Source of the DNA: a virus
Direction: 5' to 3' (one strand)
UHGV virus genome: UHGV-1620146
DNA length: 12,254 nt
The notes below the pieces were generated by a model. It had not been told where the DNA came from, ran no database searches, and worked only from the letters and a program-made list of their open reading frames with translations. The stretch's first letter is position 1. Each line of letters begins with the position of its first letter. Below are positions 1 to 7,592 of this stretch, piece after piece. Position numbers and translations under genes: made by a program.

Positions 1-58
1 CTTCGGGCTTACCAATATGGGCCAGAATTGCTGACCAGTTATCGTGAGAGTAATTCAT
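1..58 (-). CDS. insL: IS4-family (IS186-like) transposase, N-terminal 19 codons only (partial)
   Basis: ATG at plus 58..56; translation MNYSHDNWSAILAHIGKPE matches my recollection of the IS186 transposase N-terminus. No strong SD, which is common for IS transposases. ORF is truncated by the window edge. Confidence 0.55.
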   Translation of the reverse strand, partial: MNYSHDNWSAILAHIGKPE

Positions 59-113
59 CGGCACGTTAAATCATATCAGGCGTAATACCACAACCCTTAA
101 GTTAGCGCTTATG
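1..113 (-). mobile_element. Partial insertion sequence, IS186-like (IS4 family): terminal inverted repeat and start of transposase gene; element continues beyond the window's left edge
   Basis: Minus strand at plus 113..88 reads CATAAGCGCTAACTTAAGGGTTGTGG, which I recall as the IS186 terminal inverted repeat. 55 nt downstream an ATG at plus 58 opens an ORF reading MNYSHDNWSAILAHIGKPE that runs off the window. The TMP-like reading frame loses its character exactly at this junction. Identification is from memory, not a search. Confidence 0.6.
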
Positions 114-1276
114 GGATTTTCATCCGCAAACTTCGTGAATTTCTCCCCCAACTCCCCCAGCCACTGCGTGATGTTCTTAGCGTCACCAGAAAATGCGCCG
201 CCAATAGCCGCAAGGCCGTTAGTTGCGGTCCCCGTCATTGCCTCCCACAGGTTGGACAGCGTACCAAGCTGAGCCTGAACACGTTTATTCAGGCTGGCCT
301 GTTTATTCATCTTCTGCTGGATCTGATCGTAGCCATCCTTTCCTTTATCGATTAGTGCATTGACCACCTGAAGGGTTTCGGCATCATCACCAAATATTGC
401 CTTAAGTACACCGGTTCGCTTAACGTCGGTCAGTTTTCGCAGCTTTGCCAGTTGCCTGAACATGTTATCAAGACCGCCAAAACTCCCTTTGCCATCAGTA
501 AAATCGAGCTGTACCCCGAGTTTCTGGCGGGCCATGATTTTATTGACGTCCCTGATTTTCTTAACGCTTAATCCGGACTGGATAACTTTTCGCAGGGCAT
601 TACCTGCCGACTCCCCGTTCATCCCCATCTGATCCATCATGACACTGATGGGGGCAAGACTCTGTGCAGCCTGAAGACCGTCCTTATTCACCATCTTCAG
701 AACAGAACTGGTTTTAGTGAAGAATGACAGCATGTTGGTATCGTCCACGCCCAGATAAAACGCCTTCTGAATTGTGTCGAACAGCCCCATCATGTCTTCT
801 GAGGCCGTTCCGGTAGCATCCTGCATCTTTGCGGCAAACTCAGCAGCCGCTTCCGGTGTTTTTTTCAGTTGTACCGCAAGATAAGCTGTCGCTTTACCCA
901 CACCACCAAGAATGTTTTCTGCCGGGATCCCCTGACGCACCAGCATCTGCATCATGTTCTGGAAATCAGCCGTTGTACCGGGTAGCTGGTTACCCAGGCC
1001 AATAGCCAGTTTATTGATGTCCTGAAAGCTCTTTCCAACCTCGCCGTTCGCATCCATCATGGCGACTTTCAGCCCGGTGGCGGCGTTTTCCTGATCAGCA
1101 TAAGATTTCAGGGAAAGCGTCAGACCCGCTGCCAGTCCGCCACCAAGCGCCAGCCCACCCTGTGACGCTTCTTCCGCCTGGCGTTTAAATCCCCGGATTT
1201 TCTTTTGCATTTTCGACAGCGCGGGAGAAAGCCTGTCGACACCGGTGATCAACGCCTTAAGCTCAAATTCAGCCAT
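71..1276 (-). CDS. Tail tape measure protein, 3'-truncated by the IS insertion (about 388 TMP codons plus 13 IS-derived codons before a TGA)
   Basis: 401-aa ORF directly downstream of the chaperone/frameshift pair. Ala/Gly/Leu/Lys/Gln-rich, low-complexity helical composition typical of tape measure proteins. AGGAG lies 10 nt upstream of the ATG at 1276. The last 13 codons (ISANLRVVVLRLI) are encoded by the IS terminal repeat. Confidence 0.75.
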   Translation of the reverse strand: MAEFELKALITGVDRLSPALSKMQKKIRGFKRQAEEASQGGLALGGGLAAGLTLSLKSYADQENAATGLKVAMMDANGEVGKSFQDINKLAIGLGNQLPGTTADFQNMMQMLVRQGIPAENILGGVGKATAYLAVQLKKTPEAAAEFAAKMQDATGTASEDMMGLFDTIQKAFYLGVDDTNMLSFFTKTSSVLKMVNKDGLQAAQSLAPISVMMDQMGMNGESAGNALRKVIQSGLSVKKIRDVNKIMARQKLGVQLDFTDGKGSFGGLDNMFRQLAKLRKLTDVKRTGVLKAIFGDDAETLQVVNALIDKGKDGYDQIQQKMNKQASLNKRVQAQLGTLSNLWEAMTGTATNGLAAIGGAFSGDAKNITQWLGELGEKFTKFADENPISANLRVVVLRLI

Positions 1277-1687
1277 GTGTGCGTTTCTCCTGCTCTATCC
1301 TGTTTGCCTGACTGACCAGCAAGGGAATTTCACTGATCGGCATATTCAGCAATTCGAAGGGATTAATGCGCCAGTAGCTGGCGCAGTCAAAGAAGCGATC
1401 AGTGAGGTATTCAGCCGTCAGGCCTGGAGGAAAAAACCAGCCACAAGCCACGCCGCTGCATTCAGGTCTGCCGGAGACATCTGGTCGACAGAGCTTTGCG
1501 GCACTTTCGCCAGCCGCACAATGTATTTCGACACCACATGCGCCAGAAGTCTGACGGACTCATCCTGATTCATCTGGTAGGGATACCCCAGCTCGCGGAC
1601 ATCCTTCCCGGTGGGTTCATCAAACTCCAGTACGGAGAGTGTCTCACCATGAGCGATAATCGGTTTCTTTAACTCAAGCTCTTTCAT
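1269..1687 (-). CDS. Tail assembly chaperone, long form made by programmed -1 ribosomal frameshift (predicted 139 aa)
   Basis: ORF 1269..1451 is in the -1 frame relative to 1418..1687 and overlaps its 3' end. The heptamer T TTT TTC (minus strand, plus 1436..1430) sits in X XXY YYZ register in the zero frame. Predicted junction is ...VAGFF|PPGLTAEY... Confidence 0.55.
1418..1687 (-). CDS. Tail assembly chaperone, short form (P2 gpE / lambda gpG analogue)
   Basis: 89-aa ORF between the tube gene and the tape measure gene. Its ATG at 1687 overlaps the tube stop (TAATG). It ends just after a slippery heptamer and is followed by an overlapping -1 frame ORF. Confidence 0.8.
   Translation of the reverse strand: MKELELKKPIIAHGETLSVLEFDEPTGKDVRELGYPYQMNQDESVRLLAHVVSKYIVRLAKVPQSSVDQMSPADLNAAAWLVAGFFLQA
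1430..1436 (-). other. Slippery heptamer U UUU UUC for -1 frameshifting
   Basis: Plus 1430..1436 is GAAAAAA, so the minus strand reads TTTTTTC. In the chaperone zero frame the codons are GGT TTT TTC, 4 codons before its stop. Confidence 0.55.
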
Positions 1688-2043
1688 TACTGGTAATCCC
1701 CTTCTTCACCGTGGAACTCAAGATCAACCGTGCCTTCTTCGGCATTATGGTTCGCTTCTCCGTGCAGCCAGGCGGACGACAATACATAGACCTGACCGTT
1801 CGCCAGCTCGGCAGTGATTGTCATCTCATCAGACGAGGTGATTTTGCTCACCGGAAAATTCTTCGGCACCTTGAAGGTCCCTTTGACATAAGGCGCACGG
1901 TGAGTTTCCTTGCGGTCCACTGAACCGTCCAGGCCGATGATGTCATCATTGACCGTCCTGTTCATGGGCACCTCAATGCCGCCGGTCAGCGATAGCTGCT
2001 GACCGTCAATTTTGAAATAACAGGTTCCCCCGATACGGGCCAT
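1687..2043 (-). CDS. Tail tube protein (contractile tail, Mu/P2-like)
   Basis: 118-aa ORF immediately downstream of the sheath gene; its ATG at 2043 overlaps the sheath stop (TAATG). Size and position fit a myovirus tube protein. Confidence 0.8.
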   Translation of the reverse strand: MARIGGTCYFKIDGQQLSLTGGIEVPMNRTVNDDIIGLDGSVDRKETHRAPYVKGTFKVPKNFPVSKITSSDEMTITAELANGQVYVLSSAWLHGEANHNAEEGTVDLEFHGEEGDYQ

Positions 2044-3539
2044 TATGCAGACTCCTCTGAATACTGAAGACGGAACTGGTTAACCACGGCAAAAACACGC
2101 AACTGGTTAACATAGTCAGGCGGGAACAGCGTGTTCAGGCGGTTCGGATCGCTGGCATCACGCTCCACAACCAGGTACTGCTTAAACAGTTCGTAGTTTT
2201 CCACGATCCCCGCACGCTCAAGCTGACGATAGGTTGCCAGCAGTTCCCCTTTGATTACCGCCGGGGTGACAATCGCCTGAGCGGGACCAAAGCGGGTACC
2301 GTCGCTGGCAAGCTTGTGACGCCCGTACTTACTGGTAATGACGGATTTCAGTTTGCGCAGTACATACGCACTGGTATGCAGCGTCTCGCTGTCGAGGTAG
2401 CTGTTATCCGCAACCCCGTAAGCATTTTTCCTGTACGTGGTGACATCACGCTGAATGCGCAGCACCCCGCTTTCGACATACGCCGTTGCCACGCCATGAG
2501 ACAGCAGGGTCTGCTGCTCGGTCATCGTGAACCGTTTCCCCTTCGGCGCAGGCAGAATACCCACCAGCTCACCGGTCTGCGTGGGACGTGCCGGATCGTT
2601 GCGGATAAACACCGCTGCGCGGGCGGTACGGCTTGCCGCCAGCTCGTCGGCAGGGGTCTGGGTCTCTTTTTCGTACCCCGCCAGGGTGATGTGCTGCTGG
2701 TTAAACTGGTCACCTGCGTTCACCAGTTCTGACAGTGTGCCGGTCTTTGCCGTATACACATGACCATACAGCTGACGCGCATAGCTCCAGCGACCGCTGG
2801 TATCGTTCATTTCGGTCACCAGCGTGTTAACGGAGGCCGTGTCGTTGAACGGCAGACCGATATAATCAAACGGCTCATCCGCCATTGCAGCCACCGCGCC
2901 GGTGAGAACCGGAGCGCCCGTTCCGGCGGTCCCCGTCGCCACGGCAATCTGTACGCCCGCTGGCAGCACTTCGCCCCCACCGAAGCCGTAGTAATTGAGG
3001 CTGACAGGAATTTCATTCCCGCAAAGCCCCTTATGACGCGCGGTCAGCGTGACAACACCAGCCGAAGATGAAGCTGTAAACGGCAGAGTCGGAACGGCAT
3101 TGATGGCATCTTTGATACTGCTGGCAATCGTCGTGACGTTATCGCCGTTGGTCACCGAAGCCTGCACGCGGGTACGTCCCACATAGACATTCACCGTGCC
3201 GCTTTCGGTTGCTTCCCCGGTCACCGTCAGCGTAACCGTTGCCGCCGCGCCTGTGGCTTCCGGAACGGCAATCACATACAGCTCACCAAACGGGTCGGTC
3301 TGGCGATAAGCCTCGACCATACGCGCCAGCTGACTTCCCGCACCACAAATCTGGCGTGCATAGTCTGCCGACGGCATCAGCACCAGACTGTTGGCAACAA
3401 TCTCTGCACCGTTATTGGCATGACCAATCAGCAGCGATGCTCCGCTGTCCTGTGCAGTATTCGCAGCCTGGTTATCCATTTCCGCATAAAACAGCGGAAC
3501 CAGCGTATTCGACGGAATGGTGTTAAAGCTTATCGTCAT
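2043..3539 (-). CDS. Tail sheath protein (Mu gpL-like)
   Basis: 498-aa ORF with AAGGTG 7 nt upstream of the ATG at 3539. The N-terminus MTISFNTIPSNTLVPLFYAEMDN and overall size resemble Mu-type sheath proteins. It is followed by the tube and chaperone genes. Confidence 0.85.
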   Translation of the reverse strand: MTISFNTIPSNTLVPLFYAEMDNQAANTAQDSGASLLIGHANNGAEIVANSLVLMPSADYARQICGAGSQLARMVEAYRQTDPFGELYVIAVPEATGAAATVTLTVTGEATESGTVNVYVGRTRVQASVTNGDNVTTIASSIKDAINAVPTLPFTASSSAGVVTLTARHKGLCGNEIPVSLNYYGFGGGEVLPAGVQIAVATGTAGTGAPVLTGAVAAMADEPFDYIGLPFNDTASVNTLVTEMNDTSGRWSYARQLYGHVYTAKTGTLSELVNAGDQFNQQHITLAGYEKETQTPADELAASRTARAAVFIRNDPARPTQTGELVGILPAPKGKRFTMTEQQTLLSHGVATAYVESGVLRIQRDVTTYRKNAYGVADNSYLDSETLHTSAYVLRKLKSVITSKYGRHKLASDGTRFGPAQAIVTPAVIKGELLATYRQLERAGIVENYELFKQYLVVERDASDPNRLNTLFPPDYVNQLRVFAVVNQFRLQYSEESA

Positions 3540-3693
3540 CGGTGTTCACCTTTTTATTCACGCGCCGGATATCACCCGCTGCTTCACGGCGCAGCCAGTA
3601 GTTGTTCTCATCAACATTTCGCCCTTCGGCGGGCAAAAGGTCGCCGCGGGCAGGGTCAGGCACTGACCGCCCTTTAACAGGTTTCACAAACAT
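3523..3693 (-). CDS. Small hypothetical protein (56 aa), absent from the ORF track because it is under 60 aa
   Basis: ATG at 3693 preceded by GAGGA with a 5-nt spacer. It fills an otherwise unexplained 160-nt gap in a tightly packed operon and overlaps the sheath start by 17 nt. Translation: MFVKPVKGRSVPDPARGDLLPAEGRNVDENNYWLRREAAGDIRRVNKKVNTDDDKL. Confidence 0.4.
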   Translation of the reverse strand: MFVKPVKGRSVPDPARGDLLPAEGRNVDENNYWLRREAAGDIRRVNKKVNTDDDKL

Positions 3694-3701
3694 GATGATC
3701 C

Positions 3702-4262
3702 TCAGGAAGGAAGGGGTATTTCGGTGTGATGTTCGATATCGCCGTCAGGCCCGTTACCGGGATCGAGATAATCAACATCAATCGCCAGCGTTCGCAGTTC
3801 ATCCAGACTGTTCAGGTCATCCTGCTGGCGGGTATCGTCTTCGGTCAGCTCGCTGATGACCGAAAAATCGAACTGATAAATCAGCTCATGACGATTCAGA
3901 TCCAGCAGCGTGCCGCCGTCATAGGTAATCGGGTTACCGCACGCTTCCGGGTTCCAGCCCAGCAGGGCCTTAAAGAGCATCTGCCGGACATCGTCCACCA
4001 CATCATACGAAGCAAACTGACCGCGCTCATCACGCCCGTTACTCAGTATGACAACCACGGAGAAGCCCTCTTTCAGCTCCTGCCAGTAGTCGGTCTGGCT
4101 TTTGTTTTCTCCCGGAGAGTCATCACCCGGTACCACATACGCCGCCGGGAGTCTCAGCTTTCCGACCTCCGGCAGATTTTTGAACTGTGCCGCGCCTGCC
4201 ACCCGGTTTTCAAAATACGGGCAGCGGGCACGCAGCGCAGCAATAACAGGCGTCAGTTTCAT
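3702..4262 (-). CDS. Tail-proximal neck or tail-terminator-like protein (possibly Mu gp37/DUF1834-like); function uncertain
   Basis: 186-aa acidic ORF. Its ATG at 4262 overlaps the upstream stop (ATGA). It lies immediately upstream of the sheath gene, where myoviruses encode tail terminator or completion proteins. Confidence 0.6.
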   Translation of the reverse strand: MKLTPVIAALRARCPYFENRVAGAAQFKNLPEVGKLRLPAAYVVPGDDSPGENKSQTDYWQELKEGFSVVVILSNGRDERGQFASYDVVDDVRQMLFKALLGWNPEACGNPITYDGGTLLDLNRHELIYQFDFSVISELTEDDTRQQDDLNSLDELRTLAIDVDYLDPGNGPDGDIEHHTEIPLPS

Positions 4263-4765
4263 CTGCGTCGTCGCTCCGGCTTCAGTGATTTACGTAATTC
4301 CCGCGCCAGAAAATAGCGTGTCCAGCTGCGGTTCTTTTCAAGAGTTTCCACCATAAAGTTATTACGTGGAGCCAGCCGCCAGCCGCTGCCACCGGATGCA
4401 CCACGATGATGACTACGACGACGTTTTGCTCCTCCCCGGACACCAAAAAACAGAAACGCCGGATAGAAGTCACCAGAGATCATCCGGTTCCCCTTCCCGT
4501 TGCGCTGGTTAGGGGCAATGCGTGTCATAAAACCGGCTCGCTTTTTACTGGCTCTCGGCACCATGTAACCAATCGAACGAGCCAGGCGTCCGGTCTGATA
4601 ACCGGGGTTTTCACCCGGTGCCGACCGCGCACGGCGCATCACCAGCCGACGGGCATCACGCATATGACGCTGCCCAATCGTGACAAACGCCCGCCGGACA
4701 CGGGCGCGGTTAAAGCGCATCTCCGCGGGCTGCTGAACATCAACGTGAAAAAAGGGAGTCGCCAT
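4259..4765 (-). CDS. Neck / tail-completion protein, possibly HK97 gp10 family
   Basis: 168-aa very basic, Arg-rich ORF. GGAGG lies 5 nt upstream of the ATG at 4765. A ...TGRLARSI... motif is reminiscent of the gp10 family. It sits after the head-closure gene. Confidence 0.55.
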   Translation of the reverse strand: MATPFFHVDVQQPAEMRFNRARVRRAFVTIGQRHMRDARRLVMRRARSAPGENPGYQTGRLARSIGYMVPRASKKRAGFMTRIAPNQRNGKGNRMISGDFYPAFLFFGVRGGAKRRRSHHRGASGGSGWRLAPRNNFMVETLEKNRSWTRYFLARELRKSLKPERRRR

Positions 4766-5150
4766 TGCTGCCTCCGTGACTCTGCGTAAATTCGCCCAGT
4801 TCCGTACACTCCAGCAGCAGAAAGCGCCGCGCCCCGTTCAGATCGCGCTGACGTTTCACCCGGTACACACTGTCATCACAGACCACCTCATAATCAGCAG
4901 TGATCCCCCGGCGGTAGCGAATGGTGATGTAATGGGTGATGGCATCTCCGGTCTGCGCGGTTTCCTGCCAGGTGGTGGCACTGGTCTGGATAACCTTCGC
5001 CCATGCCCGGAACGCAACCGGGTATTGAGGCTCCACGCCAAAGTTATCCGCGGGCATATCCACCCGCTGGCGGATCAGGACGCGTTTATTCAGTTCACCG
5101 GGGTCCGGCAGAATGTAGGTTGCGCTGGTCTGCGCCTGACGAATTTTCAT
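4740..5150 (-). CDS. Head-closure / head-tail adaptor protein (SPP1 gp16 / HK97 gp7-like)
   Basis: 136-aa ORF. Its ATG at 5150 overlaps the connector stop (ATGA). The central ...HYITIRYRRGI...YRV... pattern is typical of head-tail joining proteins. Confidence 0.7.
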   Translation of the reverse strand: MKIRQAQTSATYILPDPGELNKRVLIRQRVDMPADNFGVEPQYPVAFRAWAKVIQTSATTWQETAQTGDAITHYITIRYRRGITADYEVVCDDSVYRVKRQRDLNGARRFLLLECTELGEFTQSHGGSNGDSLFSR

Positions 5151-5470
5151 TGCGGAAAGTACCTGTACGGGCCGACAAGCCAGCCAAAACTCTGCGGCAT
5201 GTCGAGTTTCTCCACTTCCGTAACCGACGAGCGGTTTTCGTAAAAATGGCTGATAAGCATCAGCATCCCCAGACGAATATCATCCGGCAGGTGCAGCCCG
5301 TCCGGATCGCTGTCCGGAATGGTTTCATCCGGTGCATAGAGCTTCCGGTTCAGATACGTTTCCGTCCGCTTTTGTGCCGCACAGGCCAGCAGTTGCAGAT
5401 GGCGGTCATCAGCATCGAAATCCTCATCCAGCCGGAGTTGGGCTTTAATCTCTTCCATTGTCAGAAGCAT
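5147..5470 (-). CDS. Head-tail connector protein (gp6-like)
   Basis: 107-aa ORF. The N-terminus MLLTMEEIKAQLRLDEDFDADDRHLQLL...AAQ...E.YL is characteristic of gp6-like connector proteins. It follows the capsid gene region. Confidence 0.75.
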   Translation of the reverse strand: MLLTMEEIKAQLRLDEDFDADDRHLQLLACAAQKRTETYLNRKLYAPDETIPDSDPDGLHLPDDIRLGMLMLISHFYENRSSVTEVEKLDMPQSFGWLVGPYRYFPQ

Positions 5471-5472
5471 AC

Positions 5473-5673
5473 TCAGCCCTCTTTACTGGTCGTGGCTTTT
5501 TTCTCTTTTGTCGCTTTACTGCTTTTTGCACTGGTTCCGCGCTCTGCTAACCCGGCCTGAAGTGCAATCTCCTGCACCCGGGCAGGAAGCGCCCCGTCGT
5601 CATACTCACCGGCCCGAATGACCTCAACACGCATACCGTCCGGTGACCATTTCAGATCTTGTTTCAGGATCAT
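5473..5673 (-). CDS. Hypothetical small protein (66 aa) with a Lys/Ser/Thr/Ala-rich C-terminal tail
   Basis: ORF lies between the post-capsid hairpin and the connector gene. Its stop is 2 nt from the next start. The SD is weak (GGGTGAAGAA). No family recognised. Confidence 0.5.
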   Translation of the reverse strand: MILKQDLKWSPDGMRVEVIRAGEYDDGALPARVQEIALQAGLAERGTSAKSSKATKEKKATTSKEG

Positions 5674-5692
5674 GATTCTTCACCCGTCAGAA

Positions 5693-5716
5693 CAGGGGCG
5701 CGGTTCCGCGCCCCTG
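5693..5716 (-). terminator. GC-rich stem-loop immediately 3' of the major capsid gene (attenuator / partial terminator or mRNA-stabilising hairpin)
   Basis: Perfect inverted repeat CAGGGGCGCGG / CCGCGCCCCTG (10-11 bp stem, 2-4 nt loop) lying 6 nt after the capsid stop codon. On the minus-strand RNA it is followed by UUCU only, a weak U-tract. Confidence 0.45.
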
Positions 5717-5721
5717 AGTGA

Positions 5722-6927
5722 TTACGCCACTGCAATCTTCAGCAGTTTGATGGCCTGCGAATCGACCAGCATGCCGCCGGTGCGTTTGGTGGTATAAAAA
5801 CCGACAAACGGTTTATTGGTGTACGGGTCACGCAGAATGCGGGTGCCGATACGGTCAACGATGGTGTAACCCCGTTTGAAGTTACCAAATGCAATGGCTT
5901 TCGCATCAGCGGCGATATCCGGCATCTGTTCGTTTTCAGCGATACCGTAACCCGCCAGAGAGGACGGCTGCCCCAGCTCCAGCCCCGGACGCCACAGATA
6001 GTTACCCTCGCTGTCTTTCAGCAGACGGATGGCAAACAGGCTATTGTTGTTCATCATGAACTTCGCGCCGGTGCGGTGTGCCTTACGCAGCGTGTAAATC
6101 AGTTTGATAATGGCGTCTGCGGTCGCCGCCGTCGCGTCGCCGGATACAATATGCTGAAGTTTGCCGAACGCCCGGACCTTATCGTTTTCATCCGTGGATT
6201 CATACGCCAGGAACCCTTTCGGCTTCTTGGTACCATCGCCGGTGGTAAAGGCAATTTCTTCCTGTTCGGCAAATTCGGTTGCCAGCTCGCTGTTGATCCA
6301 TGCTTCCACGTTGAAAAAGGCATCATCCAGCATTTTCTGGGTGGCCTGCGGGTTACCGTAGATTTCCCCCATGAAAGGTTCAATCAGGCCCAGTTTTGAG
6401 GTGGCAGTCTGGGAGCGCGCGTCAGTCTCGTCAACCCATCCGGAAGCCGTGCCGCCCAGATTCACCAGTTTTTTGTAGTCGGAACCACCAACGGTGATCA
6501 CCGTGGCTTCCTGGCGCATCACCACTTCATCTTTCAGCAGGGTGAGAATGTTGCGATCCAGTGCTTCCGGCACGGCATAGCCGCCGTCTTCATCGGTGCC
6601 CACCTGTAATGCCTTGCGCTCCAGATCGCGCAGACCATCTTCACGGCCTTTACGCAGGAAGCCCACAAACGCTTCTTTATGCTCGGTGGCCAGTTTATTT
6701 TGCGCACCACCTGCCGGACGTTTCAGCTCAAGCAGCTCTTTTTCAAGATCGCTTTTGAGGTTTTCCAGCTCGCTGAGTTTCCCGTTCAGGGTTTCCACCT
6801 GCCCGGCAAGCTTGCCTTTTTCCTGCTCAATCGCATCCACGCGCTTGTCGTTCTTTGCTTTGAAGTCGTCAAACTTCTGCTGCAGCTCCTGCGCGACCTG
6901 TTCGACATCTTTAATATCTACCGCCAT
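5722..6927 (-). CDS. Major capsid protein, HK97 fold, with N-terminal delta (scaffolding) domain
   Basis: 401-aa ORF with AGGAG 7 nt upstream of the ATG at 6927. The first ~100 aa are a charged coiled-coil-like segment (...LNGKLSELENLKSDLEKELLELK...). There is no separate scaffold gene between protease and capsid, as in HK97. Confidence 0.9.
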   Translation of the reverse strand: MAVDIKDVEQVAQELQQKFDDFKAKNDKRVDAIEQEKGKLAGQVETLNGKLSELENLKSDLEKELLELKRPAGGAQNKLATEHKEAFVGFLRKGREDGLRDLERKALQVGTDEDGGYAVPEALDRNILTLLKDEVVMRQEATVITVGGSDYKKLVNLGGTASGWVDETDARSQTATSKLGLIEPFMGEIYGNPQATQKMLDDAFFNVEAWINSELATEFAEQEEIAFTTGDGTKKPKGFLAYESTDENDKVRAFGKLQHIVSGDATAATADAIIKLIYTLRKAHRTGAKFMMNNNSLFAIRLLKDSEGNYLWRPGLELGQPSSLAGYGIAENEQMPDIAADAKAIAFGNFKRGYTIVDRIGTRILRDPYTNKPFVGFYTTKRTGGMLVDSQAIKLLKIAVA

Positions 6928-6941
6928 CGTATTTCTCCTGA

Positions 6942-7592
6942 TTAGAAGTTCAGATTTTTCAGTGCATTCAGTGCAGAGCTCACATCCTCAGCGTCGCGCA
7001 GGGACAGTGCGCCATAGCCCCCGGCCATGAATGCTTTGGCCTGGGTACGGGAGAGTCCGACATCACGCAGGACTCTTTCGATTTTTTTCTGTTCGGGGAT
7101 TTCCCCGCGGGCCAGCGCGTTCTTGACGTCGCTGATCCGCGCCTCGTCGTTAGACGGGAACGTCACCAGACTGACTTCCCAGAGGTCGATTTCTTTCAGC
7201 AGAAAGGCTTCTTTCGTCCGGTCGTATTCCCAGTCTTTCAGGACGTACCCAATAGAAAGGCCGGTTAACGAACCGGCCTTCATGTGTGCATGTGCGCGTT
7301 TTGCGAGGGGATCATCATCAATAAGCAACCGTCCCCTGACGTAAAGCCCGACATCGTCTTCCTTCATTTCGGTGTAAACACCGATGGGTTCATCCATGCG
7401 GTGCTGCCAGAGCAGCGCAGGTAACGCTTTTCTGTCACTCCACGCCCGCAGGGAAGCAGCAAATGCCCCGGACATCACCACATCATCGTGGCTGTCCTTT
7501 ACACCAAAGACGGAGCCATACCCTTCAAACTCACCGGAGTCACTGACAGATTTCAGACTCAGCGGTACATCAAGACGTTGTTTCGTCTGCAT
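6942..7592 (-). CDS. Prohead maturation protease, HK97 family (peptidase S78)
   Basis: Motifs EFEGYGSVFGVKDSHDDVV...GAF and GLSIGY match HK97-type protease hallmarks (catalytic His and Ser context). I prefer the ATG at 7592 (AAGGA 8 nt upstream) to the ORF-track start at 7628, which has no SD and overlaps the portal gene by 59 nt. Confidence 0.85.
   Translation of the reverse strand: MQTKQRLDVPLSLKSVSDSGEFEGYGSVFGVKDSHDDVVMSGAFAASLRAWSDRKALPALLWQHRMDEPIGVYTEMKEDDVGLYVRGRLLIDDDPLAKRAHAHMKAGSLTGLSIGYVLKDWEYDRTKEAFLLKEIDLWEVSLVTFPSNDEARISDVKNALARGEIPEQKKIERVLRDVGLSRTQAKAFMAGGYGALSLRDAEDVSSALNALKNLNF

What the first reader, a model, noticed from the sequence alone, without database searches (positions are those of the whole stretch)
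1..125. Tape measure gene truncated by an IS186-like insertion, so the prophage is probably tail-defective
The tape measure ORF (1276 to 74, minus strand) has about 388 TMP-like codons, then 13 unrelated codons (ISANLRVVVLRLI) and a stop. At that junction the minus strand reads CATAAGCGCTAACTTAAGGGTTGTGG, followed by an ORF starting MNYSHDNWSAILAHIGKPE that leaves the window. I recognise both as the IS186 (IS4 family) terminal repeat and transposase N-terminus, from memory. Tape measure proteins of contractile tails are usually much longer (roughly 600-900 aa) and set tail length, so the ruler is interrupted and the element is likely cryptic or will be rescued only by IS excision or recombination.
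Basis: partly seen in the sequence, partly recalled or inferred. Interest (0 to 1): 0.6.

Follow-up and report, generated by a model that had tools for sequence, protein, structure and literature searches.

The report
IS186 cuts prophage tape measure gene
A common E. coli jumping gene (IS186) truncates the tail-length gene of an SfV-like prophage, and in a near-identical genome the far side of the IS is chromosome rather than phage, so this is an ordinary decayed prophage that cannot be repaired by IS excision.

Summary
Window 1-113 is the left end of IS186 (IS421): it matches K-12 IS186A at 113 of 113 bases. The tape measure ORF (1276-71, minus strand) matches the 611-aa protein of phages SfV and SfII up to Pro388. 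It then reads 13 codons of the IS inverted repeat and stops.

The window ends inside the IS. A 1.5-Mb contig of the same clone (L003; 4 mismatches in 11,276 bp, identical junction) shows a full 1,339-bp IS186. Its other end abuts the ecpA-ecpB intergenic hairpin, a recurrent IS186 target, with no target-site duplication.

In related complete genomes the prophage sits at thrW with its late genes pointing toward ecp. In strain 5735 the two breakpoints are 20,937 bp apart and collinear.

The best reading is therefore an IS186-associated deletion. It removed the tape measure 3' third, the baseplate and fibre genes, the distal prophage end and ecpBCDE. The remnant has no tail and IS excision cannot rescue it.

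Two limits apply. Only one contig spans the IS, and the thrW location of this clone is inferred from relatives. This is ordinary prophage decay and of low interest.

The parts
1..113 (-). Left end of IS186 (IS421), IS4 family. The 23-bp terminal inverted repeat CATAAGCGCTAACTTAAGGGTTG lies at 113..91. The transposase (InsL) start codon is at 58..56, with the first 19 codons at 58..2. The window ends inside the element.
   Evidence: 113/113 identity to K-12 IS186A. 100% hits to annotated IS421-family transposase loci in 2,197 genomes. The full 1,339-bp copy in L003 carries a 370-aa PF01609 DDE transposase.
71..1276 (-). Truncated tape measure gene. Codons 1-388 are authentic (window 1276..113). 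They are followed by 13 codons read from the IS inverted repeat (ISANLRVVVLRLI) and a TGA stop at 73..71.
   Evidence: PF10145 PhageMin_Tail matches residues 88-296. Intact homologues are 611 aa.
112..127 (-). Target side of the joint. The minus strand reads GCGGATGAAAATCC|C, and the intact gene continues CCCCGGGTTATT. This is a degenerate IS186 target (GCGG-N8-CCCC). The IS is joined after the second C of the C-run, the same register as K-12 IS186A, L002 and L006.
   Evidence: The target motif GGGG(N6/N7)CCCC is from Lee et al. 2016, PMC5009759.
1269..1687 (-). Tail assembly chaperone gene (89 aa, 1687..1418) with a TTTTTTC slippery heptamer at 1436..1430. A predicted -1 frameshift extension ends at 1269. 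This gene lies directly upstream of the tape measure gene and is intact.
   Evidence: PF10109 Phage_TAC_7 is recorded for the identical gene in L003.
1687..11705 (-). The rest of the late operon retained in the window. It comprises HNH endonuclease, small and large terminase, portal, prohead protease, capsid, connector and head-closure genes, tail terminator, sheath and tube. All have the same lengths as in intact relatives.
   Evidence: ORF list compared with the annotations of N9, 5735 and H10407. 97-98% DNA identity to SfII, SfI, SfV and thrW prophages.

Best explanation
The window is the head and proximal-tail half of an SfV/SfII-like (HK97-type head, Mu-type contractile tail) prophage. 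Its tape measure gene is cut at codon 388 of 611 by a full-length IS186. The same single IS186 copy is joined on its other side to the ecpA-ecpB intergenic hairpin of the chromosome.

The most likely history has two steps. IS186 was present at two sites in direct orientation, one in the tape measure gene and one at the ecpA-ecpB hot spot. Recombination between the two copies then deleted everything in between, about 21 kb in a related genome. Less likely, a single intramolecular transposition event produced the same result.

The deletion removed the tape measure 3' third, including its only two strongly hydrophobic segments. It also removed the DNA-circularization, baseplate and tail-fibre genes, the distal prophage end, and ecpE, ecpD, ecpC and ecpB.

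The consequence is a prophage remnant that can at most make heads, sheath and tube protein. It cannot make a tail and IS excision cannot restore it. The host has also lost the assembly genes of the E. coli common pilus.

Shown: the identity of the IS and the gene, the breakpoint, and the far-side junction and missing target-site duplication in L003. Inferred: that the window's own genome has the L003 structure, the order of events, and the phenotypes.
For: IS identity.

Breakpoint at Pro388 of a 611-aa protein.

Same clone elsewhere: the exact 401-aa fusion protein occurs on 41 contigs. L003 and L004 differ from the window by 4 and 2 mismatches over 11,276 bp.

Far side of the IS in L003: the right IS end is followed by GGGGGCTACCCCTGCTGG and then ecpA, ecpR, ykgO, ykgM and fdeC. 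The left flank is GCGGATGAAAATCC, so there is no direct repeat.

The ecpA-ecpB hairpin is a recurrent IS186 target. It is empty in M217. LAU-OXA has a simple insertion in the same orientation with an 11-bp duplication. MIN9 has an insertion in the opposite orientation.

Synteny: in H10407, 5735 and N9 the order is proA, thrW, int, early genes, lysis genes, terminase ... tape measure, baseplate, fibres. In 5735, where the region fetched extends far enough, it continues through ecpE-D-C-B to ecpA.

Strain 5735 has an ecpA-fdeC flank 100% identical to L003, and its two breakpoints lie 20,937 bp apart on the same strand. A collinear join of this kind is the signature of a deletion, not an inversion.

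Lee et al. 2016 (PMC5009759) document the IS186 target motif and frequent deletions by recombination between direct IS copies. (PMC11708052) lists missing target-site duplications as the mark of IS-IS recombination or adjacent deletion.
Against: The window stops inside the IS, so its own far side is unseen. Only one contig (L003) spans the IS. All other contigs carrying the fusion protein end in the IS.

L003 comes from an assembly I could not examine further, and a mis-join through a 1.3-kb repeat cannot be formally excluded.

I could not walk L003 upstream to thrW. The HNH look-up did not return that contig. The chromosomal location of this particular prophage therefore rests on its closest relatives.

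The tape measure target (GCGG-N8-CCCC) departs from the published motif in both the G half-site and the core length.

No genome with the presumed intermediate, a simple insertion in the tape measure gene at this site, was found.
Confidence: 0.8

Rival explanations
1. Simple IS186 insertion. The 3' 223 codons of the tape measure gene and the rest of the tail module lie immediately beyond the IS, flanked by a target-site duplication. Precise excision could then restore the phage.
For: The window alone cannot exclude it. The left joint has the canonical IS186 register. Simple IS186 insertions occur in and beside this gene family, for example GCUET01, where the IS sits at the tape measure stop codon with the 10-bp duplication GGCTGATACC. 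All remaining late genes in the window are intact.
Against: The only contig spanning the IS in the same clone shows chromosome on the far side, not tape measure sequence, and no duplication. No complete E. coli genome carries an IS at this position.
Confidence: 0.1
2. The L003 join is an assembly artefact or reflects an inversion or translocation between IS186 copies. The distal tail genes would then still exist elsewhere in the genome, separated from the head genes.
For: IS186 is multi-copy, with a median of 3 and up to 22 copies per genome, so repeats can mislead assemblers. Only one spanning contig is available.
Against: An inversion between inverted copies would join the tape measure 5' part to the ecpB side in inverted orientation. 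What is seen is a join to the ecpA side in collinear orientation. A random mis-join would not be expected to land on the neighbouring locus about 21 kb downstream on the same strand. A 1.5-Mb contig implies reads long enough to span 1.3 kb. Even if this were true, the tape measure gene would remain split and the tail operon broken.
Confidence: 0.07
3. One-step event. An IS186 already resident at the ecpA-ecpB hot spot made an intramolecular transposition or adjacent deletion into the tape measure gene, or the reverse, instead of two insertions followed by homologous recombination.
For: The end product is identical: a single IS, no duplication, and both joints in transposase register. Adjacent deletions are a recognised cause of missing duplications (PMC11708052).
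Against: In that study the IS186 events carried no deletions. IS186 showed no local-hopping bias in mutation-accumulation lines, whereas recombination between direct IS copies was frequent (PMC5009759). This rival concerns only the route, not what is present.
Confidence: 0.25

Closest known systems
IS186 (IS186A/B/C of E. coli K-12; synonym IS421), IS4 family
   Same: The 113 bases in the window are identical to K-12 IS186A. The full copy in L003 is 1,338/1,339 identical, with 23-bp terminal inverted repeats and a 370-aa DDE transposase. It is joined after the second C of a CCCC run, as in K-12, L002 and L006.
   Different: This copy has no target-site duplication in L003. Its two flanks come from loci about 21 kb apart. 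The tape measure target deviates from GGGG(N6/N7)CCCC.
Tape measure protein of Shigella phages SfV (orf14, NP_599046) and SfII (SfII_16, YP_008318494)
   Same: Residues 1-388 are 99-100% identical. The gene occupies the same position after the sheath, tube and frameshifting chaperone genes. PF10145 domain present.
   Different: It lacks residues 389-611, including both hydrophobic segments and the C-terminal domain, and carries 13 IS-derived residues instead.
thrW-integrated SfV-like prophages of E. coli (H10407, N9, 5735)
   Same: Same gene order, with 97-98% DNA identity over the 12 kb of the window.
   Different: Those prophages keep the full tape measure gene and at least the DNA-circularization and baseplate genes downstream of it. 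Their fibre regions are variably decayed. Here everything distal to tape measure codon 388 is replaced by IS186.
IS-mediated deletions in E. coli (Lee et al. 2016 NAR; LTEE IS150 deletions)
   Same: A single IS copy sits at the centre of a deletion, the target-site duplication is missing, and the flanks are collinear.
   Different: None in kind. This is a natural instance that takes out half a prophage and ecpBCDE together.

Membership tests
IS186/IS421 (IS4 family) | 23-bp terminal inverted repeat CATAAGCGCTAACTTAAGGGTTG at the element end | tested here: met
   Window 113..91 carries it. The right-end copy is present in L003 at 12480..12502.
IS186/IS421 (IS4 family) | Near-identity to the reference element and its 370-aa DDE transposase InsL | tested here: met
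   113/113 for the window and 1,338/1,339 for L003 against K-12 IS186A. PF01609, E = 1.6e-26. RefSeq annotates the matches as IS421-family transposase.
IS186/IS421 (IS4 family) | 10-11-bp target-site duplication within a GGGG(N6/N7)CCCC target | tested here: not met
   Not visible in the window. In L003 the flanks GCGGATGAAAATCC and GGGGGCTACCCC do not repeat. This speaks against a simple insertion, not against IS186 identity. Reference copies show the duplication.
Phage tail tape measure protein (SfV orf14 type) | PF10145 domain and position directly after the frameshifting tail chaperone genes | tested here: met
   PF10145, 95.6 bits. Chaperone with TTTTTTC slippery site directly upstream.
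Phage tail tape measure protein (SfV orf14 type) | Full-length 611-aa protein with hydrophobic segments and C-terminal domain | tested here: not met
   The protein ends at residue 388 plus 13 foreign residues. The hydrophobic peaks of the intact protein lie at about 390-449.
Complete SfV-like prophage | DNA-circularization, baseplate and tail-fibre genes downstream of the tape measure gene | tested here: not met
   These genes are absent downstream of the IS in L003, where ecpA follows. They are outside the window itself, so for the window this is inferred.
Complete SfV-like prophage | Integration at thrW next to proA | not tested
   Shown for the closest relatives N9 and H10407. In 5735 the integrase lies at the same end, but the region fetched does not reach thrW. 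L003 could not be walked that far upstream.

The most novel reading that the evidence does not exclude
The deletion may not be neutral decay but a selected domestication event. One IS186-mediated step would immobilise the prophage while keeping its immunity region, the bor/iss serum-survival gene and an expressible truncated tape measure protein, and would at the same time abolish assembly of the E. coli common pilus. The 388-aa tape measure fragment might interfere with tail assembly of superinfecting SfV-like phages.
Probability: 0.05. Interest if true: 0.4.

Novelty: already known. Interest (0 to 1): 0.12.

Why it matters
This is mainly a matter of correct annotation. The 401-aa product is deposited as 'phage tail tape measure protein', but it is an IS-truncated pseudogene. 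The element should be scored as a tail-less prophage remnant, not an inducible phage. The same event probably removed ecpBCDE, so strains of this clone should lack the common pilus. The case also shows why short-read contigs that end in an IS cannot separate insertion from IS-mediated deletion. It has no wider biological significance.

Tried and rejected
1. Exact search for the 37-base junction in GTDB representative genomes, IMG/VR and JGI metagenomes found nothing. The clone is simply absent from those collections.

2. Megablast of window 1-1500 against 5,426 complete E. coli genomes found no genome with this junction. The best two-piece hit, GCUET01, has an independent IS186 insertion at the tape measure stop codon.

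3. A look-up of the HNH protein, meant to walk L003 upstream toward thrW, failed. The protein is too common (490 blocks) and the L003 contig was not returned.

4. The 148-aa 'fused' chaperone call in L005 looked like evidence for the frameshift product. It is an artefact of a run of N in that scaffold.

5. The paper that first defined the IS186 target consensus (SaiSree et al. 2001, PMC95536) is not held. I used Lee et al. 2016 instead.

6. Rfam and tRNA scans of the window found nothing.

7. Inversion was considered and rejected on the orientation of the flanks.

Full report
**Observation**

The minus strand of window 1-1500 carries an ORF at 1276..71, 401 codons plus a stop. I aligned it with three 611-aa tape measure proteins: phage SfV orf14, phage SfII gp16 and an E. 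coli prophage (Sx181-0-1). It is identical to them up to Pro388, apart from one I/V difference. It then diverges into ISANLRVVVLRLI and stops. PF10145 (PhageMin_Tail) matches residues 88-296.

The string CATAAGCGCTAACTTAAGGGTTGTGG lies at 113..88. An ORF MNYSHDNWSAILAHIGKPE starts at 58 and runs off the window.

**Identity of the inserted DNA**

Window 1-115 matches loci annotated 'IS4-like element IS421 family transposase' at 100% identity in 2,197 of 5,426 complete E. coli genomes, with a median of three copies per genome. Window 113..1 equals the first 113 bases of IS186A of K-12 MG1655 without a mismatch. The element is IS186 itself.

Homology to intact tape measure genes ends at window 113. 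The C at 113 is shared by the IS terminus and the target.

The target reads GCGGATGAAAATCC|CCGGG. The IS is joined after the second C of a CCCC run. Three other insertions use the same register:
- K-12 IS186A, target GGGG-ATCACT-CCCC, duplication GGATCACTCC
- GCUET01, duplication GGCTGATACC
- LAU-OXA, duplication GGGGGGCTACC

. Lee et al. 2016 (PMC5009759) give the IS186 target as GGGG(N6/N7)CCCC, used in either orientation. The site here is a degenerate version, GCGG-N8-CCCC.

**Identity of the phage**

Window 113-12254 is 97-98% identical to functional phages SfII, SfI, SfIV, SfV and vB_EcoM-689R6 and to E. coli prophages. All fifteen late genes upstream of the tape measure gene, from small terminase to the tail chaperone, plus the HNH gene ahead of them, have the same lengths as in intact relatives.

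**What lies beyond the IS**

The window ends inside the IS. An exact look-up of the 401-aa fusion protein found it on 41 contigs. Nearly all are 10-20-kb contigs that stop in the IS, as the window does.

One contig spans the IS: a 1.5-Mb contig of GCA_037022815.1 (L003). L003 differs from the window by 4 mismatches in 11,276 bp and has the identical junction. It carries a complete 1,339-bp IS186, 1,338/1,339 identical to K-12 IS186A, with an intact 370-aa transposase.

The right IS end in L003 is not followed by the rest of the tape measure gene. It is followed by GGGGGCTACCCCTGCTGG, the hairpin about 30 bp downstream of the ecpA stop codon. Then come ecpA, ecpR, ykgO, ykgM, ykgR and fdeC. The two flanks share no direct repeat.

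**The ecpA-ecpB site is an IS186 hot spot**

The site is empty in strain M217, where it reads GCAGGGGGGCTACCCCTGC. In LAU-OXA it holds a simple IS186 insertion in the same orientation as L003, with an 11-bp duplication. In MIN9 the insertion is in the opposite orientation.

**Synteny**

In ETEC H10407 and N9 the related prophage lies at thrW. N9 is the closest complete-genome match to the window, at 98.3%. The order is proA, tRNA-Thr, int, early genes, lysis genes, bor/iss, HNH, terminase, head genes, sheath, tube, chaperone, tape measure, DNA circularization, baseplate, fibres.

Strain 5735 shows the same order from int onward, although the region I fetched starts inside int and does not reach thrW. 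Only there does the fetched region also run on through yagU, ykgJ and ecpE-D-C-B to ecpA. Its ecpA-to-fdeC flank is 100% identical to L003 over 8.7 kb. The tape measure breakpoint and the ecpA-ecpB hairpin lie 20,937 bp apart on the same strand.

The L003 arrangement is tape measure 5' part, one IS186, then the ecpA side, all collinear. That is what a deletion of this interval leaves. An inversion between inverted IS copies would instead have joined the tape measure 5' part to the ecpB side in inverted orientation.

**Mechanism**

Both joints are in the register that IS186 transposase produces, so each was made by a transposition event. The simplest history is two IS186 copies in direct orientation, followed by homologous recombination that leaves one hybrid copy. 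Lee et al. 2016 measured this kind of event at about 4.5e-5 per genome per generation. A one-step intramolecular event gives the same product and cannot be excluded. Missing target-site duplications are the recognised mark of both routes (PMC11708052).

**Consequences (inferred)**

The truncated protein lacks residues 389-611. That region holds the only two strongly hydrophobic stretches of the protein, at about 390-449. From general knowledge of tape measure proteins (not tested here), it also holds the end that anchors the protein in the baseplate hub, where tube polymerisation starts.

With the DNA-circularization, baseplate and fibre genes also gone, no tail can be built. Because the 3' part of the gene is absent, IS excision cannot restore it. 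Loss of ecpB-E should also abolish assembly of the E. coli common pilus.

The retained late genes show no further decay, so the event is probably recent. It appears confined to one clone: 41 contigs carry it and no complete RefSeq genome does.

**Caveats**

- The far-side structure rests on a single spanning contig.
- The window's own far side is unseen.
- I could not walk L003 upstream to thrW.
- No genome carrying the presumed two-IS intermediate was found.
- I put about 0.8 on the deletion reading, about 0.1 on a simple insertion in the window's genome, and the rest on a mis-join or other rearrangement.

**Comparison and novelty**

Every component is known: IS186, the SfV-type tape measure gene, thrW prophages, and deletion between IS copies. 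This is a routine instance of prophage decay. Its value lies in correct annotation (a pseudogene and a tail-less remnant) and as a reminder that a contig ending in an IS does not tell an insertion from a deletion.

Noticed in passing
window 1436..1430 (minus strand), within 1269..1687: The tail assembly chaperone gene (89 aa) carries a TTTTTTC slippery heptamer 10 nt before its stop codon. A -1 shift there would give a 139-aa product ending at 1269 and overlapping the tape measure start codon. This is the conserved chaperone frameshift of long-tailed phages.
   Followed up: partly
window 12231..12254 (+ strand): The window's right end holds the start of a bor/iss-type lipoprotein gene (MKKMLFSA...). 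Related prophages have Bor/Iss at exactly this distance from the HNH gene. This gene and the lysis genes beyond it recurred unchanged in every related prophage fetched, so they may be repeated within a genome. Together with the left end in IS186, that suggests the window is a whole short-read contig bounded by repeats.
   Followed up: partly
window 11928..12050 (+ strand): A 40-codon ORF (MFHSTNHQAVIMAASACATDLFRFTLSLIHFYLTGSPLSF) lies in the AT-rich spacer between bor and HNH. It is preceded by a strong AAGGAGG ribosome-binding site. It was not checked for conservation or function.
   Followed up: no
L002 7061..8419 (NZ_CM183448.1, strain GCUET01): An independent full-length IS186 insertion sits at the stop codon of the same tape measure gene family. 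The target is a perfect GGGG-CTGATA-CCCC with the 10-bp duplication GGCTGATACC. An extra 678-bp gene lies between the IS and the DNA-circularization gene.
   Followed up: partly
L006 2774..4133, L024 about 1150..2550, L007 3001..3013: The ecpA-ecpB intergenic hairpin GCAGGGGGGCTACCCCTGC is hit by IS186 repeatedly and in both orientations in unrelated E. coli genomes. Such insertions probably have a polar effect on ecpBCDE expression. The L003 joint has one G fewer than the LAU-OXA joint, which could be an independent event or a homopolymer error.
   Followed up: partly
L005 about 9683..9727: This metagenome scaffold has a run of N inside the chaperone gene. The run produces a spurious 148-aa fused gene call. 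The large terminase gene is also split in this scaffold.
   Followed up: yes
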